The position numbers and the translations under genes are program-made. The notes below the pieces were generated by a model, which saw nothing but the letters and a program-made list of their open reading frames with translations, made no database searches and was not told the DNA's origin. Of a stretch of DNA of 22,412 bases, positions 3,083 through 18,892 are shown one piece after another. Every line of letters begins with the position of its first letter. The stretch's first letter is position 1. Origin of the DNA: a virus (taxonomy: Duplodnaviria > Heunggongvirae > Uroviricota > Caudoviricetes); the IMG/VR virus record IMGVR_UViG_3300032050_000048, positions 72,476 through 94,887 of that record; one strand, given 5' to 3'.

Positions 3083-4858
3083 ATGAGTTTGACAAAGGAA
3101 CAAATAATGCTTGAGTATGTGAAGTGTATGAGAGACACACCATATGCTTTAAGAACTTATTTACAAACATATGATAATACAGTCTCAAAGTATGTTCCAT
3201 TAGAGTTATTTCCAGATCAAGTATCTCTACTAAAAGATTATGAAGATTATGAGGAAAATATAGCCCTCAAGTATCGCCAGGCTGGTGTATCAACGGTAAC
3301 CGCCGCTTGGGTATCAAAAAGACTTGTGTTTGCTAAAAAAGAAAAACCAGAAAAAATTCTAATTATTGCAAACAAACTTGATACGTCAATGGAAATGGCA
3401 AACAAGATTAGAGCCTTTGTTGACCAATGGCCAAAGTGGGTTGGTACCGGATTTTCAGCCGACAAAAATTCACAAAGACATTATAAGTTAACAAATGGTT
3501 GTGAAGTTAAAGCTGTTGCAACATCACGAGATGCACTAAGGGGTTACACACCAACAATACTTGTTTTTGATGAAGCAGCCTTCATTGAAGCTGACAATGA
3601 TTTCTGGGCAGCTTGTATGGCGTCACTTTCTACCGGTGGTAAAGTAATTGTTGTATCAACACCAAATGGATATGACCCAATTTATTATGAAATCTACGAT
3701 CAATCAACAAAAGGTATAAATAACTTTAAAATCTCTGAAATGTTTTGGTGGAAAGACCCAAGATATTCCAAAGACTTATATCTTGTCCCAACAGATGATA
3801 TGGTTGATTATTTATTACACAAAGAAGAAAGAGACCATTCTGGAAATATTTCATTTGGGGATTCTGACCCATACGAAAGAGATTATGACCACATAAAAGA
3901 ATATTTCCTTAAAGGATATAAACCATGCTCATCCTGGTATGAGAAAATGGTTAAAAAATTAAAATACGATAAAAGAAAAATTAACCAAGAGTTAAATTGT
4001 GAATTCTTAGGATCTGGAGATAACGTATTTGACGCAAAACAACTAGAATATCTAAAATCAAATACAATCTATGATGCACCAAATAAAATGATGGGAAATT
4101 CTCTTTGGATGTGGAAAGAACCAGAACAAGGACATAAATACATTATGGGTGTTGATGTATCAAGAGGTGATAGTGAAGACTTTTCATCAATTCAAATTAT
4201 TGACTTTGATGAAAGAGAACAAGTTCTTGAATATGTTGGGAAAATACCACCGGATGCACTTGCTGAAATAGCATACAAATGGGGATTAATGTACAATGCT
4301 TTTTGTGTTGTGGATATTACCGGAGGTATGGGAATTACAACAGTTAGAAAAATGCAAGAACTTGGTTATAAAAACTTATATATTGATGGGGTTGATACGA
4401 CAAATATCTGGTCGTATAACGCAAAAGCCTTGGATAAAATCCCCGGGATTAATTTTAACAATAAACGGGTTCAGATTATTGCAGCGTTTGAGGAGTATGT
4501 AAGACACAAGTTTAAAATTAGAAGTTCTCGTTTGTACAATGAGATGAACACATTTATTTATGTAAATGGTAGACCAGATCACCAGAAAGGACAACACGAT
4601 GATTTAATTATGGGGATATCAATGGCAATTTATGTTGGGGAATCGTCATTCCAAAAACTTGAAAAGGTTGTTGAAAAAACAAAAATGATGATTGAATCTT
4701 GGACTGTGTCAAATAATGATTCAGTTAGTAGACAACTTCATTTTGACCCGGTACTTCCAAATATGAATACAATGAATGATAGATATAGAAATAATAGTGG
4801 GCCAAGTAGAGAGGAGTATATGAAATACGGCTGGTTATTTGGTGGAATGACAAGATAA
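3083..4858 (+). CDS. terL: Terminase large subunit (T4 gp17-like)
   Basis: Walker A variant LKYRQAGVST, Walker B ILVFDEAAF, coupling motif VSTPNG, RNase H-like nuclease motif YIMGVDVSRG and C-terminal HDDLIMG. Confidence 0.97.
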   Translation: MSLTKEQIMLEYVKCMRDTPYALRTYLQTYDNTVSKYVPLELFPDQVSLLKDYEDYEENIALKYRQAGVSTVTAAWVSKRLVFAKKEKPEKILIIANKLDTSMEMANKIRAFVDQWPKWVGTGFSADKNSQRHYKLTNGCEVKAVATSRDALRGYTPTILVFDEAAFIEADNDFWAACMASLSTGGKVIVVSTPNGYDPIYYEIYDQSTKGINNFKISEMFWWKDPRYSKDLYLVPTDDMVDYLLHKEERDHSGNISFGDSDPYERDYDHIKEYFLKGYKPCSSWYEKMVKKLKYDKRKINQELNCEFLGSGDNVFDAKQLEYLKSNTIYDAPNKMMGNSLWMWKEPEQGHKYIMGVDVSRGDSEDFSSIQIIDFDEREQVLEYVGKIPPDALAEIAYKWGLMYNAFCVVDITGGMGITTVRKMQELGYKNLYIDGVDTTNIWSYNAKALDKIPGINFNNKRVQIIAAFEEYVRHKFKIRSSRLYNEMNTFIYVNGRPDHQKGQHDDLIMGISMAIYVGESSFQKLEKVVEKTKMMIESWTVSNNDSVSRQLHFDPVLPNMNTMNDRYRNNSGPSREEYMKYGWLFGGMTR

Positions 4859-5155: not shown

Positions 5156-6949
5156 ATGGAAAATAAAAATAATGAACTAACTGTTTGGCAACGACTGACC
5201 CAGGCCTTTGGTCCCAACTCTTTATTGGGTCAAGATGTCCCAACGTATAAGTTTGATAAGAAAGAACTTTTAAGAACTAAAGATAGAAATGAATACGAAA
5301 AAGAGTTACTACAATCTCAACAAACTTTATATTTAGCAAATCAATGGCAAAAGATTGAAAGTAATTTATATACTCAAGCAATATATTATGAACCAACAAG
5401 ACTTGCAGCATTTTATGATTATGAATCAATGGAGTTTACTCCGGAGATATCAACAGCACTTGACATTTATGCTGAAGAGTCAACAACACCAGATGAAAAC
5501 GGACATATACTTCAAATATATTCAGAATCAAAAAGAATAAAAGGAATTTTAGCCGATTTATTTAATAATACATTAGATATCAACACAAACTTACAGATGT
5601 GGATTAGAAACACTTGTAAGTATGGTGATAATTTTGTTTACTTAAAATTAGATCCAGAAAAAGGAATCATTGGTTGTGTTCAGTTACCGAATATTGAAAT
5701 TGAAAGGTTAGAAAAGGGTATGTCCCCAAAAAGACCTAACACTGAAGTAAAACCAGACGAGAAGGGTGTTAGGTTTAATTGGAAAGAAAAAAATATGGAA
5801 TTTAACACTTGGGAGGTAGCACACTTTAGACTTCTAGGTGACGATAGAAAATTACCATATGGAACTTCTATGCTTGAAAAGGCAAGAAGAATTTGGAAAC
5901 AATTAGTACTTGCTGAAGATGCGATGTTAATTTATCGTACATCAAGAGCCCCGGAAAGAAGGGTATTCAAAGTATTCGTTGGAAATATGGACGATAAAGA
6001 TGTTGAACCATACGTACAACGTGTTGCCAATAAATTTAAAAGGGATCAAATTGTAGATAATAAAACAGGTAATGTTGATTTACGATTTAATCAAATGGCG
6101 GTGGATCAAGATTATTTTATTCCGGTTCGTGATGCAACACAAACAATGCCAATTGAGACATTAGCAGGTGCTCAGAACCTTTCTGAAATTGCGGATATTG
6201 AGTACATCCAAAAGAAACTTGTAACCGCTATTCGTGTACCAAAAGCTTACCTTGGTTTTGAAGAACCAGTTGGTGATGGTAAAAATTTATCTCTACTTGA
6301 TATTCGTTTTGCAAGAACAATTAATAAAATTCAGAAAAATATGCTATCTGAATTAAACAAAATTGCAATTATTCATTTATTTCTTTTAGGATTTGAGGAC
6401 GAACTTACAAACTTTACATTAGGTCTTACAAACCCGTCAAAACAAGCTGATCTTCTTATGGTTGAGGTTTGGAAAGAAAAAGTATTACTTTATAAAGATT
6501 TGGTTACAGATATCCAAGGAACAATCGCACCAACATCGGCGACTTGGGCTAAGAAACATATATTTGGTTGGTCAGACGAGGATATCAAATTAGATATCCA
6601 AAGACAAAGAATGGAGAAAGCGGTTGCGGCAGAACTTGTAAACACACCAACAATTATTACACATACCGGATTATTTGATAACATTGACAATTTGTATAAA
6701 ACTGTAAGTGGGGTAACCGACTCAACAGCCGCAGCACCGGCCGAAGGTGGCGGAATGGATATGGGTGGTGACTTAGGAGGTCCTCCACCACCACCAGGAC
6801 CACCTCCGGGAGGACCAGAAGGTGGTCTACCAGAAAGTAAGGCAAAGATGGAAAATCTATTATTAGAAAATATTGATAATGAAATATTAATTGGTAATAA
6901 CTCTCTAGGTGAAATAGAAAAAGAACTTATGAAGATTTTAGATAAGTAA
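5156..6949 (+). CDS. Portal protein (T4 gp20-like)
   Basis: Motifs YESMEFTPEISTALDIYAEE, PYGTSMLEKARRIWKQL, EDAMLIYRTSRAPERRVFKVFVGN, EDYF-like QDYFIPVR and LAGAQNLSEIADIEY; located downstream of terL; Gly/Pro-rich disordered tail. Confidence 0.97.
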   Translation: MENKNNELTVWQRLTQAFGPNSLLGQDVPTYKFDKKELLRTKDRNEYEKELLQSQQTLYLANQWQKIESNLYTQAIYYEPTRLAAFYDYESMEFTPEISTALDIYAEESTTPDENGHILQIYSESKRIKGILADLFNNTLDINTNLQMWIRNTCKYGDNFVYLKLDPEKGIIGCVQLPNIEIERLEKGMSPKRPNTEVKPDEKGVRFNWKEKNMEFNTWEVAHFRLLGDDRKLPYGTSMLEKARRIWKQLVLAEDAMLIYRTSRAPERRVFKVFVGNMDDKDVEPYVQRVANKFKRDQIVDNKTGNVDLRFNQMAVDQDYFIPVRDATQTMPIETLAGAQNLSEIADIEYIQKKLVTAIRVPKAYLGFEEPVGDGKNLSLLDIRFARTINKIQKNMLSELNKIAIIHLFLLGFEDELTNFTLGLTNPSKQADLLMVEVWKEKVLLYKDLVTDIQGTIAPTSATWAKKHIFGWSDEDIKLDIQRQRMEKAVAAELVNTPTIITHTGLFDNIDNLYKTVSGVTDSTAAAPAEGGGMDMGGDLGGPPPPPGPPPGGPEGGLPESKAKMENLLLENIDNEILIGNNSLGEIEKELMKILDK

Positions 6950-6973: not shown

Positions 6974-7693
6974 ATGAAATTTGGACTTATAAAAAGTAAA
7001 ATAGAGAAATGTCTAACAGATTCATACCTTAAGGAATCATTTAAAAAAGACATTTTTATTTTTAGTGAACTTGTATTAAAAAACAAGACATTAAAAGAAA
7101 TGTATTATATGTACGACGAACTATCTTCAAGTAAGGGTTATAGTGATGATTTTGCAAATGAATTCCTTAACGAATCAATAACCACTTTAAAGGAAAGTAT
7201 TAAAAATTTAAGTTCAAACTCTATTAATGAATTAGATTTATGGTTATCTGAAATAGAGACTAAAAACATATATGAAAATATTGACAATCTAGTCTACACA
7301 AAAAACTTAAATCTTGAATCAAGAATTAAAAGTAAAAAGTTTATTTTAGAATCTTTATCAAAATCAAAAAAAGAAGAATACACTGATATGGTAAAATTAC
7401 CAGTAAGTAAAATTGTTGATGTTGCTAATAAGACAATTTCAGATTATTTATCTAGTATTAACGAATCTGAAAGAGAAGAAGTTAAAAAAATCTTGTCAGA
7501 AGACAATGATAAATTATTGGTTAAATATGAAGTATTAAAAGAGAGTACTCTTGATAAATTAAATGATTTAAAATCAACAAACGATGATACTGAAGTAACA
7601 TCAAGAATTAATCAGACAATTAATAAATTAAATAACGAAACCTACAATAGAGTAAATTATTACAAATTAAAAGATTTATTTACAAATCTTTAG
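6974..7693 (+). CDS. Helical, charged hypothetical protein, possible prohead core component
   Basis: 239-aa Lys/Glu-rich ORF between portal and protease, where T4 has core genes 67/68; contains several (L/I)xE sites (YLKES, TLKES, VLKES). Function is inferred from position only. Confidence 0.5.
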   Translation: MKFGLIKSKIEKCLTDSYLKESFKKDIFIFSELVLKNKTLKEMYYMYDELSSSKGYSDDFANEFLNESITTLKESIKNLSSNSINELDLWLSEIETKNIYENIDNLVYTKNLNLESRIKSKKFILESLSKSKKEEYTDMVKLPVSKIVDVANKTISDYLSSINESEREEVKKILSEDNDKLLVKYEVLKESTLDKLNDLKSTNDDTEVTSRINQTINKLNNETYNRVNYYKLKDLFTNL

Positions 7694-7874
7694 GAGTAAT
7701 TTTTAGTTTCTGAATATAGATTGCTTTTTTAACCTGGCTACGTTTTACAACAGATTTTTTCTTAAATTCCCGTCTATCATTTAGGTGGGAATTTTGTCTT
7801 GTTTTAATCACCTTACTTTTAAGTTCTTTTAACGCCCTTTCTATATCACCTCTTTTAACTTCTACTTTTAACAT
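7680..7874 (-). CDS. rpsU: Phage-encoded 30S ribosomal protein bS21, Bacteroidota type
   Basis: MLKVEVKRGDIERALKELKSKV...RREFKKKSVVKRSQVKKAIYIQ fits the bS21 pattern (IERALKxxK, xxFxKxSxxxR) with the Bacteroidota C-terminal KAxYIQ. It lies antisense within the head module and overlaps the upstream gene's 3' end by 14 nt. Confidence 0.92.
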   Translation of the reverse strand: MLKVEVKRGDIERALKELKSKVIKTRQNSHLNDRREFKKKSVVKRSQVKKAIYIQKLKITPKDL

Positions 7875-8445: not shown

Positions 8446-9183
8446 ATGAGTAATTATAAAATTTTATCACCAAGTGAAACTGGAAAGGGTATTCTAATTG
8501 AGTACGATGCCGGATATATCAACCCTAAAGTAACTCAAAATAGTTATATAATGGAAAATAAAAGTTTCCTTGATCACTCAAAACCATTTGAGTTCTACGC
8601 TGTATTACAAAAATACAATACGCCAAATAGAAACGGTAGAGTATATCCTGAAGATATTTTAAAAAGAGAAGCTGAAAATTATAAAAAGATGATTGAAAGA
8701 GGAACTTCTCTTTCTGAATTAAATCACCCAGAATCTTCTCTTATTGATCTTGACCGGGTATCACACATTATAACCGAAGTATGGTGGGAAGGAAATGTTC
8801 TTATGGGTAAATTAAAATTGCTTACAAGTCCAGGATTTCACGAAAGGGGAGTTTGTTCCACAAAAGGTGATTTGGCAGCAAACTACTTAAGACAAGGTGT
8901 TACTTTGGGTATTTCATCTCGTGGAGTTGGTTCACTTAAAAAAGTTGGTGAAACAAATGAGGTACAAAAAGATTTTGAATTAATTTGTTTTGACCTTGTA
9001 TCATCTCCCTCAACTCCTGGTGCATATCTTTTCTTAAATAAAGATGATAGAATGAATTATGAGGAGAATCTTGATGAGGAAAAGAAAATGCAATCAACAA
9101 GAAGTAGTGAAATGGATGATGCTTCAGCAATTGATAAATCAAAAAAATTAATGGATAAATTATCCGCTTTTCTTGATAAATAA
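8446..9183 (+). CDS. Prohead core protease (T4 gp21-like)
   Basis: NRNGRVYP, catalytic His in ELNHP, catalytic Ser region GISSRGVGS, and FDLVSSPSTPGA. Confidence 0.95.
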   Translation: MSNYKILSPSETGKGILIEYDAGYINPKVTQNSYIMENKSFLDHSKPFEFYAVLQKYNTPNRNGRVYPEDILKREAENYKKMIERGTSLSELNHPESSLIDLDRVSHIITEVWWEGNVLMGKLKLLTSPGFHERGVCSTKGDLAANYLRQGVTLGISSRGVGSLKKVGETNEVQKDFELICFDLVSSPSTPGAYLFLNKDDRMNYEENLDEEKKMQSTRSSEMDDASAIDKSKKLMDKLSAFLDK

Positions 9184-9218: not shown

Positions 9219-9434
9219 ATGGAACAAGGAGAAAAATATTTTGTAGCAAAAATTACTTCAGATTTACTTGATAGTGAATCCGGTAGAGTTAAAAAAGTTA
9301 AAGAAGAAAAATTAGTTTTGGGATATACACCAACAGATGTAGAGGCAAAGGTTACCAAGATTTATGAAAACTACACAATGGATTGGAGAATCACTTCAAT
9401 TACAGAAAGTAAAATTGATGAGGTAATTGAATAA
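9219..9434 (+). CDS. Small protein resembling Bacteroidota DUF4494
   Basis: YFVAKI...ESGRVKKVKEEKLV...TDVEAKV...WRITSITESKIDEVI parallels the DUF4494 pattern as I recall it (WFxxKV...ExGxxKKVxExYLV...TEAEARI...FxVxxIxxxxxxEI). Confidence 0.6.
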   Translation: MEQGEKYFVAKITSDLLDSESGRVKKVKEEKLVLGYTPTDVEAKVTKIYENYTMDWRITSITESKIDEVIE

Positions 9435-11097: not shown

Positions 11098-12954
11098 ATG
11101 GGAGCATTATTAGAATCTGGTCTTGTTGGTAACATCGGTCTTAAGCACCTTAAAGTTATCAAAGAAGATACAATTAACAAATGGGATAAATTAGGATTCC
11201 TTGATGGACTTAAAGGTCATCTAAAAGAGAACGTGGCTCAGTTATATGAGAACCAAGCATCTCACCTAATTAACGAAGCAACTTCAGAAGGTTCAAACGG
11301 AGCTTTTGAAACGGTTGTTTTCCCTATCGTTAGAAGAGTTTTCTCTAAATTGTTAGCTAACGATATCGTATCAGTACAAGCTATGAACTTACCAATTGGT
11401 AAATTGTTCTACTTTGTACCTCGTATCCAAGGATATAACCCAAATGAAGCTGGTAGTGTTCACTATCCACCAATTGGTTCTCCTGAAGCGGTTAATGGTG
11501 GTTATAACGTACCGGGTCAAGGTTACCCAGGAGCTGATACAGCACCTAACGCTAACGCACCTTTCTCAAAAAATCTTTATGATTTATTCTACGAAGGAGC
11601 TGAGCCAGGATTGGATCCTGCTGGTCTATTTGATTATTCTAAAGGTCGTTTTTCTGCTATCACGGCAGCGGCTACTGTTGTAAAATGGTCAAATGGTGAC
11701 TTAGTTGATGCTAACAATGACGACGCTGCTTATGTTGGTAACACAAGAAAAGTTCTTATCAAACTTTGTGGGTGGAGTAACATCCCAGGTGCTGGTAAAC
11801 TTATCGGACCTGACGGAAATGAAATTGATACAGAATCTTTCCTTTCTGACCTTAAAATCCTTACTAATACAGGATTAGGATTTGATGCTGCTAACGTATG
11901 TCCAGTTCCTACAGTTGGTGCATCACCACTTTTATTTAGAGTTGTAACTCAAAAATATGGTAAAGGAATTGTTGACTATGGTAGTCAATATCAAACTACA
12001 TTCCCAGTTGATGGAAATGGTGGTTCTTTTAACAATATCTGTAACGCTAATGGTTGTATCATTCTTGAAGTAGATCTTTCTTGTCCTGCTTGTGCATCTT
12101 GTGGTGACACTTCACTTGATGGGTACACTGGTTCTACTCTTTCTGCTATCACATCTGCAACATCATTTACTGCTGTTTGGAGACGTTACGAAGAACTAGA
12201 GTTTGAAGAAAAAATCGGAGAGGTTTCTTTTGACCTTGAGTCTGTTACAGTATCAGTTACTGAAAGAAAATTAAGAGCACAATGGTCTCCAGAGCTTGCT
12301 CAAGACGTTGCGGCATTCCATAACATTGATGCTGAAGCTGAGCTTACTGCTCTTCTTTCAGAACAAGTTGCTGCGGAAATTGACCGTGAAATCCTAAGAG
12401 ACCTTCGTAAAGGTGCTGCATGGAACCTACGTTGGGATTACAATGGATGGAGAAGATTGTCTTTGACTACTTCTTACACACAGAAAGACTGGAACCAAAC
12501 GTTGATTACAGCAATCAACCAGTTGTCTGCACAAATCCACAAGTCTACACTTAGAGGTGGTGCTAACTGGATTGTTGTTTCTTCTGAAGTTTCAGCTATC
12601 TTTGACGATTTAGAATACTTCCACGTATCTAACGCGTCTCCTGAGCAAGACCAATACAATATGGGTATTGAAAGAGTTGGTACTCTTGCTGGACGTTACC
12701 AAGTTTATCGTGATCCTTACTTCCCACCAAACACAATCTTGTTGGGTCACAAAGGAACATCATTGTTAGACACTGGATACATCTACGCACCATACGTACC
12801 TCTTCAGTTAACACCTACAATGTACAACCCATTCAACTTCACACCTATCAAAGGTATTATGACAAGATACGCTAAGAAAATGGTTAACAACCGTTTCTAC
12901 GCTCGTATCACTGTTGATGGAGTTCGTACATTTGATTTAAGAGAATTGAGATAA
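11098..12954 (+). CDS. Major capsid protein (T4 gp23-like) with a large Cys-containing insertion
   Basis: PIVRRVF...DIVSVQAMNLPIGKLFY, ERKLRAQWSPELAQDVAAFHNIDAEAELTALLSEQVAAEIDREIL, GANWIVVS, and GYIYAPYVPL...FTPIKGIMTRYA. Confidence 0.98.
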   Translation: MGALLESGLVGNIGLKHLKVIKEDTINKWDKLGFLDGLKGHLKENVAQLYENQASHLINEATSEGSNGAFETVVFPIVRRVFSKLLANDIVSVQAMNLPIGKLFYFVPRIQGYNPNEAGSVHYPPIGSPEAVNGGYNVPGQGYPGADTAPNANAPFSKNLYDLFYEGAEPGLDPAGLFDYSKGRFSAITAAATVVKWSNGDLVDANNDDAAYVGNTRKVLIKLCGWSNIPGAGKLIGPDGNEIDTESFLSDLKILTNTGLGFDAANVCPVPTVGASPLLFRVVTQKYGKGIVDYGSQYQTTFPVDGNGGSFNNICNANGCIILEVDLSCPACASCGDTSLDGYTGSTLSAITSATSFTAVWRRYEELEFEEKIGEVSFDLESVTVSVTERKLRAQWSPELAQDVAAFHNIDAEAELTALLSEQVAAEIDREILRDLRKGAAWNLRWDYNGWRRLSLTTSYTQKDWNQTLITAINQLSAQIHKSTLRGGANWIVVSSEVSAIFDDLEYFHVSNASPEQDQYNMGIERVGTLAGRYQVYRDPYFPPNTILLGHKGTSLLDTGYIYAPYVPLQLTPTMYNPFNFTPIKGIMTRYAKKMVNNRFYARITVDGVRTFDLRELR

Positions 12955-12975
12955 TCAAAACTTAAATAACCCTTG

Positions 12976-13004
12976 AAAAGGTCAGAGAAATCTGACCTTT
13001 TTTT
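12976..13004. terminator. Strong, probably bidirectional intrinsic terminator after the MCP
   Basis: AAAAGGTCAGA-GAAA-TCTGACCTTTT is a perfect 11-bp stem with a GNRA loop, ending in a T7 run. Confidence 0.92.
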
Positions 13005-13084: not shown

Positions 13085-13091
13085 TATTTAT
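13085..13091 (+). promoter_or_regulatory. TATTTAT motif, candidate late promoter
   Basis: 7 nt upstream of ATG 13099, the first accessory gene. Confidence 0.45.
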
Positions 13092-13098
13092 TGTTAAT

Positions 13099-14100
13099 AT
13101 GAAAAAGTTTTTTTTATTTTTTTTAATAGTTTTTTTCCCACCATTTTTATTTTCACAAACTTTAATAAAATACGACTATATTGAATCATTCAATTGGTTA
13201 GGCGGATGGTCAGTTGGGTATGGAAATAATACCGGTTATTACGCCAACGCGTTTGTTAGTAGTACATCATCAGCAGCTTTAATCGGTACCGGTAATGGAA
13301 CGTCAAACATTGAAGAAGGGGTCTATGTTTTACCAAATATCACAGGATTAGACCAAGGATTTGAGTATGAATTTAGATTTAGATTAGGGTCTTATAAATT
13401 TGGTTCATCGTCATCTTTAAGTGCTGGTGTTGATATTGCCGATTACGTATTACTTTATATTAGTACCGATAATACTACTTTGGTTCAAGAGATAAAAATT
13501 AATGGTTATGATAATGCGTTATGGAATTACAACACAACATTAATACAAAAAACAGCAAGCGGGACACTCACAACATATTCAGCACAAAACGGAACTTATT
13601 CTGATATACGTTTAAAATTTACAAACGTAACACAATTTACCGCAAGAGTTTATGTTAGAGTTAATTCCGTAGGTGAAGAATGGTGGTTAGATAATTTTGA
13701 ATTGTGGCAAATGACAACCCCATTACCGGTAAGTTTAATCTCTTTTGAAGGAGATAGAGATAGTTTATGGTGGGACATATATTCAGAATATAATAATGAC
13801 TATTACACAATATTACACTCAATGGATGGGTATAATTTTGAACCAAAATATAATGTACCATCTGAAGGTAAACATAAATATTCAATTAGAAATACGATTG
13901 GTTCTGGATATTTTATTTTAAGACAAACAGATTATGATGGTAAATTTGAAAATCTTAGTATTATCTACATTAAAGAACATAAGAATAGAATACTTATAAA
14001 AATCACAAATTTAATGGGACAAGCGGTGTTAAATATGAAAGAAGGTGAAATATATTTACTTATATATGATGATGGTTTTATAGAAAAAACTATGAAATAA
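13099..14100 (+). CDS. Secreted beta-sandwich (adhesin/lectin-like) protein with a degenerate PLPVxL Ig-like domain and a T9SS-like C-terminal tail
   Basis: Signal peptide MKKFFLFFLIVFFPPFLFS|Q; jelly-roll-like motifs YVLLYISTDN and WWLDNFEL; PLPVSLISFEG...SEYNNDYYTILHSMDG...YFILRQTDYDG; tail IKITNLMGQ...YLLIYDDGFIEKTMK. Confidence 0.75.
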   Translation: MKKFFLFFLIVFFPPFLFSQTLIKYDYIESFNWLGGWSVGYGNNTGYYANAFVSSTSSAALIGTGNGTSNIEEGVYVLPNITGLDQGFEYEFRFRLGSYKFGSSSSLSAGVDIADYVLLYISTDNTTLVQEIKINGYDNALWNYNTTLIQKTASGTLTTYSAQNGTYSDIRLKFTNVTQFTARVYVRVNSVGEEWWLDNFELWQMTTPLPVSLISFEGDRDSLWWDIYSEYNNDYYTILHSMDGYNFEPKYNVPSEGKHKYSIRNTIGSGYFILRQTDYDGKFENLSIIYIKEHKNRILIKITNLMGQAVLNMKEGEIYLLIYDDGFIEKTMK

Positions 14101-14242
14101 ACTATCATACAAAATTTTACCCCATTTAAGTATTTTTACCTAACCATTCGTATGTAGTACTTATACTACTATAGAGCGTACCCCTTAATTTAAAAATACT
14201 ATACCCCCCACAAAAGGACTTTATACCATTATATGACTAACT

Positions 14243-14270
14243 ATGTGTATACAATAAAAAATATACACAT
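14243..14270. promoter_or_regulatory. 9-bp inverted repeat abutting the subtilase start codon (possible operator or translational hairpin)
   Basis: ATGTGTATA-N10-TATACACAT ends 1 nt before ATG 14272. Confidence 0.35.
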
Positions 14271-14271
14271 T

Positions 14272-16257
14272 ATGAAAAATTTAATAGTAACAATTTTAAC
14301 AATTTTAACAACAACAATTAGTGTCTTATCTCAGGACAACGTATGGGTAAAAATCCCAAATTATGAATCAAAAAGAACTGAGGTTTTAAATTCAATCTCA
14401 GACCTTAGTATTACAGAAATAAAAAAGGCGTTTCCATCATCACATAATTCTGAATTACAACAAGTTTATCAAATAAATTGTAATTGTGATGTTAATGAAT
14501 TACTAGTAAGAACTTCTAAAAATAATAATTTTGTTAAACCTGAATTAGGTCCTGAATATAAAACTCTTGACACCCCAAACGACATCTCAGTTTTTATGTA
14601 CGATTACGCACTTAATTCAATAAACGCTGAACAAGCTTGGGATATCACACACGGAGATACTTCAGTAGTTATTGCTATTACAGATGCAAACTATTACCAC
14701 AATCACGAAGATCTTGGTGGTAAAATTACTTATAGAACAATTGACAACTATAGTACTGATTATACTCATGGTACCGCGGTAGCTATAACAGCTGCAGGTA
14801 ACACAAATAATTTCGCCGGTAAAAGTTCAATTGGTTACAATTCAAAGTTACAACTAAGAGTTATGGATTATAATGAATTACTTGAAGCAACTTATTCAGG
14901 AGCAAGAGTAATAAACGCTAGTTGGGCTTCTAGTTGTTATTTTAACTATTACGCACAACAAGTTATAAATGAGGTTCATAACAACGGTTCTGTTATAATA
15001 GCAGCCGCTGGTAACGGAAGTACTTGTGGTGGGTCAGTAAACGAAGTTTATCCTGCATCATACGAACACGTAATTTCAGTTACATCTGTTGGACCGAACA
15101 ACAATCACGAAAGATTCATCGGCAACCCAAATTCAACACACCAACACAATAATAAAGTAGATATTTCGGCTCCTGGATACGACATAGTGTTGTCAACATC
15201 ACCGGGTCAATATGTTACAGGAAATGGTTCTTCTTTCGCCACACCACTTGTTTCAGGAACCGTAGCTTTGATGTTATCTGTTAATCCTTGTTTAACTCCC
15301 GATCAAATTGAGTATATTCTTAAAGAAACTGCTGATAGCTCAATTTATGAAGTTAACCAAAACTATATTGGTATGTTAGGTTCAGGTAAATTAGATTCTT
15401 ATAAAGCTGTTTTAATGGCAAAAAAATTCAATACGATTGAGGGTGAACTAATAACTGATGTTAATTGTGTTGATTCAAAAAGACAGGCAAAATTTAACAA
15501 CATTACAGGTCAAGTTCCTTTATCTTTTGAATGGTCTAATGGTAGTACTAATGATAAAATAGAAGTAGATTCTACTGGTTTTTATAGTATAGAAGTTAAA
15601 GATGTTAAAGGTTGTAAATTTTACTCAGAAAGAGAAATTGAATCTTACAGTGAAATAACAACACAATCCGAAATTAATCATGTAACGTGTTATGGTTTTG
15701 AAAATGGTGGGATAAGTGTTTCAACACAAGGTGGTGATTCTACTTTAACTTATGAATGGTCAAATGGTAACACATTAAGTACTATGACAAATTTAAAACC
15801 TGGGTACTATCAGGTAAATGTAACAGACCAATCAGGGTGTGTTGTAATGGAAGATTTTACAATTAACGAACCCGAACTACTTGTTACAAGTTTAAATTAC
15901 GTACAACCAACTCAAAATACCTTTGGATCAATTGATTTAGATGTGGTTGGTGGTACTAAACCGTATAACTATCAATGGAATCATGGTGAAATTAGTGAGG
16001 ATTTAAATAGTGTGGTATCGGATTTTTATGAGGTATTAGTTACAGATGATAATGGATGTATGTCCTCTGAGAATGTAATTTTATCTAATTTAACAGAAGA
16101 AATATTAAATATAGGAGAAATAATAAACACTAATGAAAAATTAAATCCAGAAATTGTTTTAGATATGAACGGAAAACAAATTAGATTTGATAATGCCCCC
16201 GTTGGTTTTTACTTTATGGTTGAGGGTGGGGTAATAAAAAGAATATATAAAAGTTAA
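14272..16257 (+). CDS. Secreted S8 (subtilisin-like) serine peptidase with SprB repeats and a T9SS-like C-terminal tail
   Basis: Signal peptide MKNLIVTILTILTTTISVLS|Q (ATG 14272 preferred over 14233). Triad Asp in IAITDAN (14683), His in THGTAVA (14767), Ser in GSSFATPLVSG (15232); oxyanion Asn in AAAGNG. SprB-type repeats (HVTCYGFENGGISV..GG...YEWSNG...LKPGYYQVNVTDQSGC). Tail LDMNGKQI...PVGFYF...KRIYKS. Confidence 0.9.
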   Translation: MKNLIVTILTILTTTISVLSQDNVWVKIPNYESKRTEVLNSISDLSITEIKKAFPSSHNSELQQVYQINCNCDVNELLVRTSKNNNFVKPELGPEYKTLDTPNDISVFMYDYALNSINAEQAWDITHGDTSVVIAITDANYYHNHEDLGGKITYRTIDNYSTDYTHGTAVAITAAGNTNNFAGKSSIGYNSKLQLRVMDYNELLEATYSGARVINASWASSCYFNYYAQQVINEVHNNGSVIIAAAGNGSTCGGSVNEVYPASYEHVISVTSVGPNNNHERFIGNPNSTHQHNNKVDISAPGYDIVLSTSPGQYVTGNGSSFATPLVSGTVALMLSVNPCLTPDQIEYILKETADSSIYEVNQNYIGMLGSGKLDSYKAVLMAKKFNTIEGELITDVNCVDSKRQAKFNNITGQVPLSFEWSNGSTNDKIEVDSTGFYSIEVKDVKGCKFYSEREIESYSEITTQSEINHVTCYGFENGGISVSTQGGDSTLTYEWSNGNTLSTMTNLKPGYYQVNVTDQSGCVVMEDFTINEPELLVTSLNYVQPTQNTFGSIDLDVVGGTKPYNYQWNHGEISEDLNSVVSDFYEVLVTDDNGCMSSENVILSNLTEEILNIGEIINTNEKLNPEIVLDMNGKQIRFDNAPVGFYFMVEGGVIKRIYKS

Positions 16258-16262
16258 AAAAA

Positions 16263-16586
16263 ATGAAAATAGAACTTATTCTTGAAGAGGCTAAAATTAG
16301 GGTTATAAATATGGTGGATGACCATTGTTGGGAAGTTATACGGGACCTATTAGATGAGATAAATAAAAGTTCTAACGATAAAAATATAAAATCCATAAGT
16401 GATATTGAAGAAACTTTAGAAATGATTAGGGGGGTTCAGAGGTTTAAACAAAAAGTAACTGATGAAATAAAAGACAAAACAACTCTGTCTGAAATATTAA
16501 ATCTTTGTGAAGATGATTTAGTTAAAGAGGATGAAGAAGAAATATTAACGGCCTTTTTTGGTTATGAAATAAAAATAAAAAAATGA
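16263..16586 (+). CDS. Acidic helical hypothetical protein
   Basis: 107-aa ORF starting 5 nt after the peptidase stop; its stop overlaps the next start (ATGA). Confidence 0.7.
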   Translation: MKIELILEEAKIRVINMVDDHCWEVIRDLLDEINKSSNDKNIKSISDIEETLEMIRGVQRFKQKVTDEIKDKTTLSEILNLCEDDLVKEDEEEILTAFFGYEIKIKK

Positions 16587-16960
16587 GAACAACACTATCA
16601 GAAAAAACTAATACAACACCAAAAGTTGTTTTTAATCATAACAACAATACTTTGAGTATTGAGGGTAAATCAATATTGTTTGAACCAGAATTATTTTGGT
16701 CATTAATAATAAACCAAATTAAAAAATATGAGATAAAAACAATTATGGTAAAATTAAATCACATTAACACCAATTCTATACTCCACTTAATTAAGTTAAT
16801 CAATCTTAAACAAAATAATGTTATTTGGTTTTATGAGGAATCTGACGAAGACCTACTTGAATTAGGTAAAGATTTGGAGATATTGTCAAATAATTTATTT
16901 GAATTTGTTGTTTCTGATAATATAGAACTTAGTTTTACCGACTTAAAAGTGGTAGTATAA
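16583..16960 (+). CDS. SiaC family regulatory phosphoprotein (DUF1987)-like
   Basis: TTPKVVF...LSIEGKS..FEPELFW, then KLNHINTNS (SiaC motif YxNTSS, Thr63 retained) and VIWFYEESDEDLLELGKDL (SiaC motif WYYxxDDEDMxExGEDF). Confidence 0.8.
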   Translation: MRTTLSEKTNTTPKVVFNHNNNTLSIEGKSILFEPELFWSLIINQIKKYEIKTIMVKLNHINTNSILHLIKLINLKQNNVIWFYEESDEDLLELGKDLEILSNNLFEFVVSDNIELSFTDLKVVV

Positions 16961-17002
16961 ACAAATAACATCAAAAAACTTGATTATAACATTTATTTTT
17001 GA

Positions 17003-17009
17003 TATTTAT
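17003..17009 (+). promoter_or_regulatory. TATTTAT motif, candidate late promoter
   Basis: 18 nt upstream of ATG 17028; a TAnnTTTG-like TATTTTTG (16994..17001) lies immediately before it. Confidence 0.45.
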
Positions 17010-17027
17010 AATAATAAAAACGTAGTT

Positions 17028-18416
17028 ATGAAAAATTTAATATTATTTATTTTTACTTTATTAATGACTTTTTCAGGATTGTCACAGTATTGTAATACCG
17101 CAACAACAAATGAGACAATTACTCCAACAACAACCTTACAATATACGCCAGCTTATGCCGCTGGTCGTAGAGCGTTTAATTTTTATGCTGAAGCGGGTAA
17201 TGAATACACCTTTTCTACTGTAGGTCAAACTACGGTAGATACATATCTTCGTTTATATTCTACAGCAACTGGAGGTTCAGTTTTAGCGTGGAGTGATGAT
17301 TATTTTAATACACAATCAGAAATAACATGGTATTGTACTACTTCAGGTAATTATTCAATACTTTTAACTCGTTGGTCTGCCTCAAGTACATGTAACACCA
17401 TAAACGCTAGTGCAATAGTTAAGTATCAAAAAGGTAGTACGGCAGGAAGTACCATAGTAAGTATAGGTAGTGGTGAAGGTGTTGTTTATAACGCACCCGC
17501 CAATCATTACTACAAATATGGGTGGTCTGAAATAATTTATTTACAGTCGGAAATTAATACAGAAGGAAACATTACAAAAATACGTTTCCAAGTAGACCCA
17601 ACCACACCAGGTCCTTATACCGCAACAAACCAAAAAATATATATGGGTCACACAACACTATCAGTATTACCCTCACCGGTTAGTGAAAACGCACAAACAA
17701 ATTATGTATCATCTAACTATACATTGGTTTATGATGGTAGTGTTACTTGGAATATTGGGTGGAACGAAATTGCACTACAAACACCATTTCCTTGGAATAA
17801 CACAAATAACTTACTTATAAAATGGGAAAATAGAAATGGTACATATACTTTTGACGAACCTTGGTTTTATTACACATCAAAAACTAATACGGTAGGGTAT
17901 AGTCACCAAGATGCGTCATATCCCACGTCAAATGGTGTACAATCTAGTCTTAGACCAAATATAAAAATAGCACTTTCAGATCCAAACCCATTACCTGTTG
18001 AATTATCAACTTTTAATGGTGTGAATAAAGGTCCAAATAATTATTTATTTTGGTCAACTGTATCTGAACAAAATACAAGCCACTTTAACCTACAAAAAAG
18101 TAGAGATGGTGAAATATGGACTACTATCGCAACACTAAACGCAGCAGGAAATTCAACACAAGAAATAACCTACGATGTTGTTGATTTTAAAGTTGACCCA
18201 AACATAAACTATTATAGATTACAACAATATGATTTAAATGGTGTTTATGACACATTTGGACCAATAACTATAAATAATATAGATTTAGAAAGTAAAAAAA
18301 CTATAATTAAATATGTTAATTTAAATGGTCAGGAAATTGATCCTGAAAAACTTAAAATTTCTGATGTTTATGTAGAAATATATGATGATGGGACAATGAG
18401 AAAGGTTATTAGATGA
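17028..18416 (+). CDS. Secreted multi-domain protein: PPC-like domain, beta-sandwich, PLPVEL Ig-like domain and T9SS-like C-terminal tail
   Basis: Signal peptide MKNLILFIFTLLMTFSGLS|Q (ATG 17028 preferred over TTG 16980). PPC-like YTFST...DTYLRLY...LAWSDD...QSEITW...GNYSILL; beta-sandwich SEIIYLQSEI...GWNEIALQTPF...RPNIKI; PLPVELSTFNG...WSTVSEQN..HFNLQKSRDG...GNS...YYRLQQYDLNG; tail IKYVNLNGQ...YVEIYDDGTMRKVIR. Confidence 0.85.
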   Translation: MKNLILFIFTLLMTFSGLSQYCNTATTNETITPTTTLQYTPAYAAGRRAFNFYAEAGNEYTFSTVGQTTVDTYLRLYSTATGGSVLAWSDDYFNTQSEITWYCTTSGNYSILLTRWSASSTCNTINASAIVKYQKGSTAGSTIVSIGSGEGVVYNAPANHYYKYGWSEIIYLQSEINTEGNITKIRFQVDPTTPGPYTATNQKIYMGHTTLSVLPSPVSENAQTNYVSSNYTLVYDGSVTWNIGWNEIALQTPFPWNNTNNLLIKWENRNGTYTFDEPWFYYTSKTNTVGYSHQDASYPTSNGVQSSLRPNIKIALSDPNPLPVELSTFNGVNKGPNNYLFWSTVSEQNTSHFNLQKSRDGEIWTTIATLNAAGNSTQEITYDVVDFKVDPNINYYRLQQYDLNGVYDTFGPITINNIDLESKKTIIKYVNLNGQEIDPEKLKISDVYVEIYDDGTMRKVIR

Positions 18417-18892
18417 TAAGTAATTTTGAACTATATAAAAGGTTGTTTACCGCATTAATCGCAGTATTACAACCTTTTATTATTTATTTTACTTGTGGAG
18501 ACTTAATTTCACTTTCACAATCTTGGAACACACCATTACAACCACTTTTTATTTTTACAAACGCACTTGTAAGTTATTTCTTTTTTGATTTACCTCATTG
18601 GCGAATACCAGCAGTACTTCTTTTACTTTTAACCGTTTTTTCAGTTGAGGATTATGTCACAATTCATAATGTACTTGCTGTCGGTTTTTTTATTGTGTGT
18701 GTGTTTCCTTTGTGGTCAATAAAGAGATTTAGACTATACTTACCGGTATATCTTTTGTCCACAATTTTTTTAACTTTTGATGGATTATACTGGATGGAAA
18801 CTTGGGCAATTATTGTTCTTTGTTTTTATCACGTACACGTAATGTTATATACTAAATCAATCCATACTAGAAATCACCCGGATAGCCTTTGA
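18413..18892 (+). CDS. Multipass (about five TM segments) membrane protein
   Basis: Alternating hydrophobic segments, including SLSQSW and HNVLAVGFF motifs; start overlaps the previous stop (ATGA). Confidence 0.75.
   Translation: MISNFELYKRLFTALIAVLQPFIIYFTCGDLISLSQSWNTPLQPLFIFTNALVSYFFFDLPHWRIPAVLLLLLTVFSVEDYVTIHNVLAVGFFIVCVFPLWSIKRFRLYLPVYLLSTIFLTFDGLYWMETWAIIVLCFYHVHVMLYTKSIHTRNHPDSL

What the first reader, a model, noticed from the sequence alone, without database searches (positions are those of the whole stretch)
13099..18416. Phage cassette apparently encoding three cargo proteins for the host type IX secretion system, directly behind the capsid gene
SEEN: three ORFs (13099, 14272, 17028) start with a Sec-type signal peptide ending in S|Q (LFS|Q, VLS|Q, GLS|Q). 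All three end in a short tail with an (N/D)(L/M)xG(Q/K) motif, a Tyr-containing strand and a terminal Lys/Arg-rich strand. They carry PLPVxL Ig, SprB and PPC-like domains. The cassette is flanked on both sides by phage genes, and two of the three genes share the TATTTAT motif of the head genes. KNOWN: Gln at +1 (pyroglutamate Q-rule), SprB repeats, PLPVEL Ig domains and C-terminal sorting domains are hallmarks of Bacteroidota T9SS substrates. Virion proteins assemble in the cytoplasm and normally lack signal peptides. INFERENCE: the infected cell exports phage proteins through Sec and its own T9SS, remodelling its surface or surroundings (superinfection exclusion, altered adhesion or gliding, nutrient scavenging). 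I know of no characterised phage-encoded T9SS cargo system, but I could not search the literature.
Basis: partly seen in the sequence, partly recalled or inferred. Interest (0 to 1): 0.88.

Follow-up and report, generated by a model that had tools for sequence, protein, structure and literature searches.

The report
Phage secreted proteins with short T9SS tails
A large uncultured freshwater phage of Flavobacteria-type bacteria carries, just behind its capsid gene, a protease and two binding-type proteins that bear the host's export signals, including a short, unannotated version of the type IX secretion tag; the infected cell therefore probably exports them, but this has not been tested.

Summary
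Three genes (13099, 14272, 17028) encode proteins with Sec signal peptides cut before Gln and a conserved 36-40-residue C-terminal tail. They lie deep inside an 80.7-kb phage contig, and independent assemblies carry the same arrangement.

The standard T9SS models (PF18962, TIGR04183, TIGR04131) do not match the tails. Five results still point to a short form of the type A sorting domain:
- Close orthologues of all three proteins carry PF18962 at the same position.
- Profile comparison aligns motifs B, D and E.
- AlphaFold2 gives a three-stranded tail.
- The tail occurs at the C-terminus of more than 2,000 protein clusters, and in 75 of 201 sampled Flavobacteriales genomes, on signal-peptide proteins with typical cargo domains.
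- A PorV-tail model scored 0.80 against 0.00 for the controls.

Functional short CTDs are published for Prevotella intermedia (PMC11969387), and phage T9SS cargo was predicted in 'Cryophage' (PMC7468147). This scan had already reported a near-identical cassette on another genome (e1-1846349), and many other phage T9SS cargo genes.

Verdict: a new variant of a known kind. Secretion, timing and role are inferred.

The parts
11098..12954 (+). gp23-type major capsid protein gene (context, left border of the cassette)
   Evidence: PF07068 Gp23 E 4.5e-73
12975..13002 (+). Intrinsic-terminator-like hairpin (12-bp stem, T run) that closes the capsid transcription unit
13085..13091 (+). TATTTAT motif 14 nt before gene 1 (candidate late promoter shared with the head genes)
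13099..14100 (+). Gene 1, 333 aa: signal peptide, MAM/CBM-like jelly roll, Ig-like domain, short tail
13099..13155 (+). Gene 1 signal peptide (aa 1-19, cut LFS|Q)
13720..13980 (+). Gene 1 PLPVSL Ig-like domain (aa 208-294)
13981..14097 (+). Gene 1 short C-terminal tail (aa 295-333), three predicted strands, pLDDT about 90
14272..16257 (+). Gene 2, 661 aa from the ATG at 14272: signal peptide, S8 subtilase (Asp151, His179, Ser334 in P0002 numbering), SprB repeats, short tail
14272..14331 (+). Gene 2 signal peptide (cut VLS|Q)
14662..15342 (+). Peptidase S8 domain
   Evidence: PF00082 E 8.3e-30
15445..16107 (+). SprB-type repeats
   Evidence: PF13573 E 1.2e-12
16147..16254 (+). Gene 2 short tail (36 aa), replaced by PF18962 in 75-100% identical orthologues
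16263..16586 (+). 107-aa acidic ORF, no family
16583..16960 (+). SiaC-like (DUF1987) gene, a constant neighbour of these cargo genes in related phages
   Evidence: PF09345 E 2.8e-14; synteny
17003..17009 (+). TATTTAT motif 25 nt before gene 3
17028..18416 (+). Gene 3, 462 aa from the ATG at 17028: signal peptide, two or three beta-sandwich binding-type domains, Ig-like domain, short tail
17028..17084 (+). Gene 3 signal peptide (cut GLS|Q)
17988..18278 (+). Gene 3 PLPVEL Ig-like domain
18294..18413 (+). Gene 3 short tail (40 aa); its N-L-N-G-Q-E-I loop is the centre of the predicted PorV interface
18413..18892 (+). 159-aa multi-pass membrane protein whose start overlaps the stop of gene 3 (ATGA); conserved with the cassette

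Best explanation
The cassette encodes three proteins that the infected Flavobacteriales-type cell most likely exports in two steps. Step 1 is Sec export, with signal-peptidase I cleavage before Gln. Step 2 is transport across the outer membrane by the host type IX secretion system. For step 2 the signal is a short (about 36-40 residues, three strands) derivative of the type A C-terminal domain. It keeps motif B (the N-L-x-G-Q-E-V loop), motif D (G..I/Y) and the basic motif E, and it docks into the shuttle protein PorV. The cargo is an intact S8 protease with SprB-type repeats and two non-enzymatic beta-sandwich (lectin- or adhesin-like) proteins. Genes 1 and 3 carry the promoter-like motif of the head and tail genes, so they are probably made late. 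The most likely role is to alter the cell surface or surrounding matrix around the time of lysis, for example by destroying or masking receptors or loosening the matrix. Shown here: the signals, their conservation, their interchangeability with PF18962, their presence in host-type genomes, and the phage context. Inferred: T9SS dependence, PorV binding in vivo, timing and role.
For: 1. Phage context. The window lies at 33-56 kb of an 80.7-kb virus record. Seven independent contigs carry the same capsid-cassette-downstream order. The terminase, portal, reverse-strand bS21, protease and gp23 block matches the bS21 phages predicted to infect freshwater Bacteroidetes (PMC9723584).
2. Tail swap. Orthologues of all three proteins carry PF18962 exactly where the window's proteins carry the short tail. 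P0002 is 75-100% identical to P0210, P0218 and P0209 over about 600 residues, then 7-27% in the tail. Those canonical-CTD orthologues are also phage-borne.
3. Homology. hhalign of short tail against canonical CTD gives P 1.5e-4 and aligns motifs B and D. S8-type tails against the other short tails give probability 92%, P 7e-7.
4. Structure. AlphaFold2 gives three strands in the tail at pLDDT about 90. This matches the three-stranded short CTDs of P. intermedia, which are cleaved and glycosylated in vivo (PMC11969387).
5. Census. A tail profile finds 2,390 cluster representatives at E<=1e-3, always at the extreme C-terminus. Most have a signal peptide cut before Gln and GEVED, GBD_T9SS_assoc, fn3, Ig_7, CUB, PKD or PPC domains.
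6. Host side. An all-phyla pattern scan returned only Bacteroidota, mostly Flavobacteriales. Five such genomes hold 1-14 short tails, 100-150 PF18962 domains and PorV above its cut-off, including a tail on a 1.95-Mb contig. In a sample of the order, 75 of 201 species genomes have the tail.
7. PorV model. Score 0.80, best of 3 controls 0.00; this mark was reached by 58 of 80 solved complexes and 2 of 110 mismatched pairs. The runs share at least 77% of contacts, partner pLDDT is at least 73, and the contacts centre on the motif B loop.
Against: PF18962, TIGR04183 and TIGR04131 do not match the tails, even at E 10. The tail is half the length of a type A CTD and lacks the PNP strand. Short CTDs have been shown to work only in Prevotella intermedia, and I did not compare the sequences directly. 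In F. johnsoniae the CTD is described as about 100 residues (PMC12618676). The PorV used was a stand-in from a Flavobacteriales MAG, not the unknown host, and PorV-CTD complexes have been solved, so the pass may reflect likeness only. The late-promoter reading of TATTTAT is an inference, and gene 2 lacks the motif. There is no expression, proteomic or secretion data and no cultured relative.
Confidence: 0.68

Rival explanations
1. The proteins are Sec-exported, but the short tail is not a T9SS signal. It would be a small beta-hairpin module with another job, such as periplasmic or outer-membrane anchoring, oligomerisation or ligand binding, that merely resembles the end of a CTD.
For: The curated CTD models do not match. 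The short-versus-canonical hhalign probability is only 51%. The tail lacks four of the seven CTD strands.
Against: Near-identical orthologues swap it for PF18962 at the same position. It is always the last residues of the protein. It occurs only in T9SS-bearing Bacteroidota and their phages in the scans made. The PorV model passes with controls at 0.00. A functional short CTD is published (PMC11969387).
Confidence: 0.15
2. The tails bind PorV, but the purpose is to jam or retune the host T9SS. The phage proteins would act as competitive plugs or decoys that shut down host secretion or gliding, rather than as cargo with an outside function.
For: PorV binding is predicted with high confidence. 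The phage uses the short form for all three proteins, while host-type genomes use it for 1-14 proteins against 100-150 canonical ones. An earlier scan note on another phage proposed docking or blocking (e1-1866189, unchecked).
Against: The same tail sits on ordinary chromosomal cargo-type proteins of Flavobacteriales. The phage proteins keep large, conserved functional domains, including an intact catalytic triad. Orthologues with full CTDs exist.
Confidence: 0.08
3. They are virion parts: Hoc-like Ig-domain decoration or fibre proteins encoded next to the capsid gene and made late. The hydrophobic N-termini would not be used for export.
For: They lie directly behind gp23, carry Ig-like domains and share the promoter-like motif of the head genes.
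Against: Signal peptides with Gln at +1 are conserved in 85-96% of family members. Homologues lie among non-structural genes in other large phage contigs. The C-terminal module is shared with bacterial chromosomal proteins. No PHROG structural family matches.
Confidence: 0.04
4. The cassette is host DNA joined to phage DNA by mis-assembly, or a recent inert passenger.
For: The domains are host-like (SprB, S8), and GC falls to 26-30% in parts of the cassette.
Against: The same junctions occur in seven contigs from different samples. There are hundreds of phage-borne homologues. The reading frames are intact, and there is phage-type promoter-like motif. The cassette is 38 kb from either contig end.
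Confidence: 0.02

Closest known systems
Short T9SS C-terminal domains of Prevotella intermedia (Ye et al. 2025, Open Biol, PMC11969387)
   Same: Both are C-terminal signals of about 40-55 residues, predicted as a single three-stranded sheet equivalent to strands 3, 6 and 7 of the long CTD. Both keep motifs B, D and E and are modelled to sit in PorV like long CTDs. Both coexist with long CTDs in the same organism.
   Different: The consensus differs (N-L-L-G-Q-E-V ... G..I..Y-x-D-G ... K-I-I-K). The organisms are Flavobacteriales and their phages, whereas the paper calls P. intermedia the only species seen with short CTDs. The tail usually follows a PLPVEL Ig-like domain. There is no experimental cleavage or glycosylation data. 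I did not compare the sequences directly.
T9SS type A CTD (TIGR04183 / PF18962 Por_Secre_tail)
   Same: Both sit at the extreme C-terminus of signal-peptide proteins of Bacteroidota. The motif order is shared, PorV is the predicted receptor, and the two are interchangeable in orthologues.
   Different: The tail is half the length, has three strands instead of seven, lacks the PNP strand, and scores below every curated threshold.
Phage-encoded T9SS cargo of 'Cryophage' (Bellas et al. 2020, Nat Commun, PMC7468147)
   Same: An uncultured Bacteroidetes phage carries three variable genes for secreted proteins with T9SS sorting signals, read as hijacking of the host system.
   Different: Cryophage is a 76-kb phage with standard type A domains on glycoside hydrolases and a PA14 protein. 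Here a T4-like phage estimated at well over 200 kb carries short tails on a protease and two binding-type proteins, placed behind the capsid gene.
bS21-encoding phages of freshwater Bacteroidetes (Chen et al. 2022, ISME Commun, PMC9723584)
   Same: The conserved block is the same: terminase, portal, bS21 on the reverse strand, prohead protease, capsid.
   Different: That paper does not mention secreted proteins, signal peptides or T9SS (zero occurrences of these terms).

Membership tests
T9SS type A CTD (TIGR04183 / PF18962) | Match to the curated model above its cut-off at the C-terminus | tested here: not met
   No hit on any of the three tails, even at E 10 on isolated tails. The only TIGR04183 hit (17.9 bits, below the cut-off of 23) is internal, in a SprB repeat. 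There is no PF18962 match anywhere in the 80.7-kb record.
T9SS type A CTD (TIGR04183 / PF18962) | Seven-stranded Ig-like beta-sandwich of about 70-100 residues | tested here: not met
   The tails are 36-40 residues. AlphaFold2 gives three strands (P0001 299-303, 318-323, 328-332).
T9SS type A CTD (TIGR04183 / PF18962) | N-terminal Sec signal peptide on the same protein | tested here: met
   All three proteins have one. It is conserved in 85-96% of family members by a simple hydrophobicity and cleavage rule; SignalP was not available.
T9SS type A CTD (TIGR04183 / PF18962) | Conserved motifs B, D and E, in order, at the extreme C-terminus | tested here: met
   Alignment with canonical-CTD orthologues. 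hhalign P 1.5e-4 and 6.5e-4 against a canonical CTD profile. The support is modest.
T9SS type A CTD (TIGR04183 / PF18962) | Binding to the PorV shuttle | tested here: met
   In silico only. Score 0.80, best of 3 controls 0.00; the mark was reached by 58 of 80 solved complexes and 2 of 110 mismatched pairs. Runs share at least 77% of contacts and partner pLDDT is at least 73. The PorV was a stand-in, and similar complexes are solved, so the pass may show likeness only.
T9SS type A CTD (TIGR04183 / PF18962) | T9SS-dependent secretion and removal of the CTD by PorU | not testable with these tools
   Needs reporter fusions in wild type and porV/sprA/porU mutants.
T9SS type A CTD (TIGR04183 / PF18962) | Confined to T9SS-bearing Bacteroidota (and their phages) | tested here: met
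   A pattern scan of 185,579 species genomes confirmed only Bacteroidota loci. The five genomes checked have PorV and 100-150 PF18962 domains. In the Flavobacteriales sample, 75 of 201 genomes have the tail.
Short CTD class (Prevotella intermedia, PMC11969387) | A 40-55-residue signal forming one three-stranded sheet that keeps motifs B, D and E | tested here: met
   Length, strand count and motif order agree. This is a comparison with the paper's description, not with its sequences.
Short CTD class (Prevotella intermedia, PMC11969387) | Sequence match to the P. intermedia short-CTD profile | not tested
T9SS type B CTD (TIGR04131 / PF13585) | Match to the curated model | tested here: not met
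   No hit.
Peptidase S8 (subtilase), gene 2 | Pfam match and the Asp-His-Ser triad | tested here: met
   PF00082 E 8.3e-30. The ITDAN, HGTAV and GSSFATP motifs are at residues 149-153, 179-183 and 332-338.
bS21 phages of Bacteroidetes (PMC9723584) | bS21 gene on the reverse strand inside the terminase-portal-protease-capsid block | tested here: met
   ORF 7680-7874 (-) matches PF01165 at E 3.6e-7, 30.2 bits, above the cut-off of 27.

The most novel reading that the evidence does not exclude
A distinct short form of the T9SS sorting signal (about 38 residues, three strands) goes unseen by current annotation models. It would be in regular use in roughly a third of Flavobacteriales species and be favoured by their large phages, which swap it freely with the full type A domain. 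These phages would export a protease and lectin-like proteins at the time of head assembly, to strip or mask surface receptors or loosen the matrix before lysis.
Probability: 0.3. Interest if true: 0.75.

Novelty: new variant of a known kind. Interest (0 to 1): 0.58.

Why it matters
If the short tail is a working T9SS signal, current annotation (TIGR04183/PF18962) misses a whole class of secreted proteins in Flavobacteriales, which are major degraders of organic matter in lakes and seas. It would also show how little of a CTD is needed for PorV recognition outside Prevotella. For phage biology, it would show that large freshwater phages routinely use their host's secretion machine for their own proteins, with the tag exchangeable as a module. 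That gives a sequence-based way to list the proteins a phage sends outside the cell. A 40-residue tag would also be a compact tool for secretion or surface display in Bacteroidota.

Tried and rejected
- Curated CTD models (Pfam and NCBIfam, whole proteins and isolated tails, E up to 10) gave no hit on the tails. PF18962 run over the whole record found none.
- A HMMER profile of the tails of families 1 and 3 did not find the protease tail. Profile-profile comparison later did.
- Pfam does not support a PPC domain in protein 3.
- Foldseek against PDB gave only generic beta-sandwich matches for both models (MAM, CBM, discoidin, CUB, FN3) and no enzyme fold.
- A PDB sequence search with the tail profile found nothing meaningful.
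- PHROGs returned only a generic protease family for gene 2.
- The phage DNA search found no close relative, and no cultured phage carries homologues of protein 3.
With bacterial protein P0422 it found nothing. A narrower alignment worked.
Independent contigs were used instead.
- I rejected the idea that the spot behind the capsid gene is a fixed site for these genes. It holds in L006, L040 and L041 but not in L002, L004, L044 or L045.
Full report
WHERE THE WINDOW LIES. The window is bases 33,374-55,785 (reverse strand) of an 80.7-kb linear IMG/VR virus record that CheckV estimates as 28% complete. The genome is therefore probably well over 200 kb. A crude gene map of the whole record shows phage genes throughout. 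In the window, the genes upstream of the finding are:
- a large terminase at 3083-4858,
- a T4-type portal at 5156-6949,
- a ribosomal protein bS21 gene on the reverse strand at 7680-7874 (PF01165, 30.2 bits),
- a prohead protease at 8446-9183,
- a gp23-type capsid gene at 11098-12954 (PF07068, E 4.5e-73).
This block is the signature of the 'bS21 phages' of Chen et al. 2022 (PMC9723584). Those are myoviruses of up to 331 kb predicted to infect freshwater Bacteroidetes. No close relative is in the deposited phage collection, and the nearest capsid genes are below 46% identity.

THE OBSERVATION. The three ORFs exist as described. Orthologue N-termini place the true starts at 14272 and 17028. Each protein has a textbook signal peptide cut before Gln. 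Each ends in a 36-40-residue tail with a shared pattern: a hydrophobic strand, N/D-L/M-x-G-Q/K, a spacer, G..(Y/I), and a basic last strand.
- Protein 1 (333 aa) folds as a MAM/CBM-like jelly roll plus a seven-stranded Ig-like domain that starts at PLPVSL, then the tail (mean pLDDT 80, tail about 90).
- Protein 2 is an S8 subtilase with an intact Asp-His-Ser triad followed by SprB repeats.
- Protein 3 (462 aa) is a chain of discoidin/CUB-type beta-sandwiches, a PLPVEL Ig-like domain and the tail (pLDDT 83).
Pfam does not support the 'PPC-like' label for protein 3.
A strong terminator-like hairpin at 12975-13002 follows the capsid gene. Gene 1 then has its own TATTTAT motif. The same heptamer lies 6-39 nt upstream of the terminase, protease, capsid and several fibre-like genes. 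It occurs within 60 nt upstream of 19 of 77 genes on the record, against 2.2 expected at uniform density. Gene 3 has it and gene 2 does not.

NOT A CHIMERA. The exact protease protein is on seven contigs. Two of them, from different sources (JGI 28 kb, ENA 7.7 kb), show the same order from terminase through capsid, the cassette and the downstream genes.

ARE THE TAILS T9SS SIGNALS? The direct test fails. PF18962, TIGR04183 and TIGR04131 do not match the tails at any threshold tried, and PF18962 matches nowhere in the record. Six other lines of evidence point the other way.

1. Interchangeability. Each of the three proteins belongs to a large family of metagenomic proteins found on contigs of up to 270-390 kb. 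In each family some members carry PF18962 exactly where the others carry the short tail. For the protease this is sharp. P0210, P0218 and P0209 are 75-100% identical to the window's protein over about 600 residues, then fall to 7-27% in the last 90 alignment columns, where they have a full CTD. These canonical-CTD versions are also phage-borne. On a 390-kb circular contig, a homologue of protein 1 and an S8 protease, both with PF18962, lie three genes apart. Two further phage contigs carry the protease with PF18962.

2. Homology. In the protease alignment the short tail reads as a CTD that has lost the PNP strand and one inner strand. hhalign of short tails against canonical CTDs gives P 1.5e-4, aligning the G-loop and the G.Y strand. 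The divergent protease-type tails match the other short tails at 92% probability, P 7e-7.

3. Shape. The tail is predicted as three strands. Ye et al. 2025 (PMC11969387) showed that Prevotella intermedia uses 48 'short CTDs' of 40-55 residues. These are predicted as one three-stranded sheet equivalent to strands 3, 6 and 7 of long CTDs and keep motifs B, D and E. Cleavage and glycosylation were shown by mass spectrometry. They state that P. intermedia was the only species seen with short CTDs.

4. Census. A profile of 98 tails finds 2,390 cluster representatives at E<=1e-3 (142 at E<=1e-10) among 1.84 billion proteins. Apart from four long proteins matched only by repeated short internal stretches, the listed hits have the match at the last residues. 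Of the 82 hits of 200 aa or more, 81 start with Met. Of these, 57 have a signal peptide with Gln at +1 and 10 more have a signal peptide by my rough rule. Their other domains are those of T9SS cargo: GEVED, GBD_T9SS_assoc, fn3, CHU_C-associated Ig, CUB.

5. The host side. One tail-bearing protein lies in plainly bacterial context, next to OmpA, a TonB-dependent receptor and PagL. A pattern scan of one genome for each of 185,579 species returned 16 confirmed loci. All are in Bacteroidota MAGs, and nearly all of those are Flavobacteriales or Crocinitomicaceae. Five of these genomes hold 1-14 short tails each, one on a 1.95-Mb contig, beside 100-150 PF18962 domains and PorV above its cut-off. The bacterial proteins have signal peptides cut before Gln, the tail at the very end, and PKD, P-domain, GEVED, LTD, PPC and GBD_T9SS_assoc domains. 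One of them shares the Ig-plus-tail module with protein 3 at 33% identity, E 3e-18. In an even sample of the order, 75 of 201 species genomes have at least one tail at E<=1e-5.

6. PorV docking. PorV of one such genome was folded with the tail of protein 3. The score was 0.80 against a best of 3 controls of 0.00. That mark was reached by 58 of 80 solved complexes and 2 of 110 mismatched pairs. The runs agree in at least 77% of contacts, and partner pLDDT is at least 73. The tightest contacts are tail residues 12-18, the N-L-N-G-Q-E-I loop. Published models also place motif B deepest in the PorV barrel (PMC11969387). PorV-CTD complexes have been solved, and this PorV is a stand-in, so the pass shows likeness rather than binding in the real host.

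MOST LIKELY MECHANISM. The proteins are exported by Sec and cut before Gln. In the periplasm the short tail is recognised by the host T9SS and PorV, and the proteins are released or fixed on the surface. The cargo is one protease and two binding-type proteins, and no glycoside hydrolase fold was found. The shared promoter-like motif suggests that genes 1 and 3 are expressed with the head genes, which is an inference. A late, outward-acting protease plus lectin-like proteins would fit destruction or masking of receptors, or loosening of the matrix, near lysis. That role is a guess. I put the T9SS-cargo reading at about 0.68.

RIVALS. A non-T9SS function for the tail (0.15) is hard to square with the tail swap and the taxonomic range. 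A jamming or decoy role (0.08) is possible, but the same tail sits on ordinary chromosomal proteins. A virion-decoration role (0.04) conflicts with the conserved signal peptides and with homologues that lie among non-structural genes. Chimerism (0.02) is excluded by the independent contigs.

POSITION AND NEIGHBOURS. The site behind the capsid gene is used again in a 301-kb relative, by a different short-tail protein of 931 aa with GEVED domains. In other large contigs the homologues lie elsewhere. These are therefore mobile gene units, not a fixed module. A SiaC-like (DUF1987) gene is a steady neighbour. It sits next to the protein 3 homologue in L002, directly after the protease in L042 and L043, and between genes 2 and 3 here.

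WHAT IS KNOWN. Phage-encoded T9SS cargo was predicted in 'Cryophage' by Bellas et al. 2020 (PMC7468147). This scan has many such notes. One of them covers a near-identical cassette on another genome and reached the same reading, shortened T9SS tails (e1-1846349). Short CTDs are published only for Prevotella.
- the tail swap in near-identical orthologues,
- the size of the tail family,
- its presence in about a third of sampled Flavobacteriales genomes,
- the link to the bS21 phages,
- the PorV model.
I class the finding as a new variant of a known kind.

Noticed in passing
window 7680-7874 (-): A 64-aa ribosomal protein bS21 gene lies on the reverse strand inside the head-gene block (PF01165, 30.2 bits). 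This is the hallmark of the bS21 phages of freshwater Bacteroidetes described by Chen et al. 2022 (PMC9723584).
   Followed up: partly
window 16583-16960 (+); also L002 11536-11919, L042 10082-10441, L043 10053-10397: A SiaC-like (DUF1987) gene is a constant neighbour of the secreted protease or of the protein 3 family in four different phage contexts. No SiaA, SiaB or SiaD partner was seen. Its link to exported proteins is unexplained.
   Followed up: partly
window 18413-18892 (+): A 159-aa protein with four or five hydrophobic helices starts at an ATGA overlap with the stop of gene 3 and travels with the cassette in L040 and L041. It matches no family. It could be a membrane partner of the cargo.
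   Followed up: no
G000 record, reverse-complement coordinates 5958-6356 (-), about 19 kb before the window start: A fourth small protein (132 aa) has a clear signal peptide cut before Gln (…GFS|QKD) but no short tail.
   Followed up: no
window 9219-9434 (+): A 71-aa DUF4494 protein lies between the prohead protease and a 500-aa protein of no known family (possibly the scaffold). It is conserved at this position in L006 and L040.
   Followed up: no
phage records LR745206.1 (42673-43014), LR756502.1, LR756504.1, LR756500.1: Unannotated huge-phage genomes of 460-640 kb contain matches to the Ig-like domain of protein 3; in two (LR745206.1, LR756502.1) the match runs on into the short tail. The signal is therefore not limited to the bS21 phage lineage.
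   Followed up: no
L043 10453-13899: In one relative, the protease-SiaC pair is followed by a ClpP-type protease, a DUF1573 protein and an ABC exporter. This may be a larger export-related gene group.
   Followed up: no
G001-G005: Each Flavobacteriales genome that has short tails also has three or four weaker PorV/FadL-like paralogues besides the true PorV. I did not test whether one of them is a dedicated shuttle for short tails.
   Followed up: no
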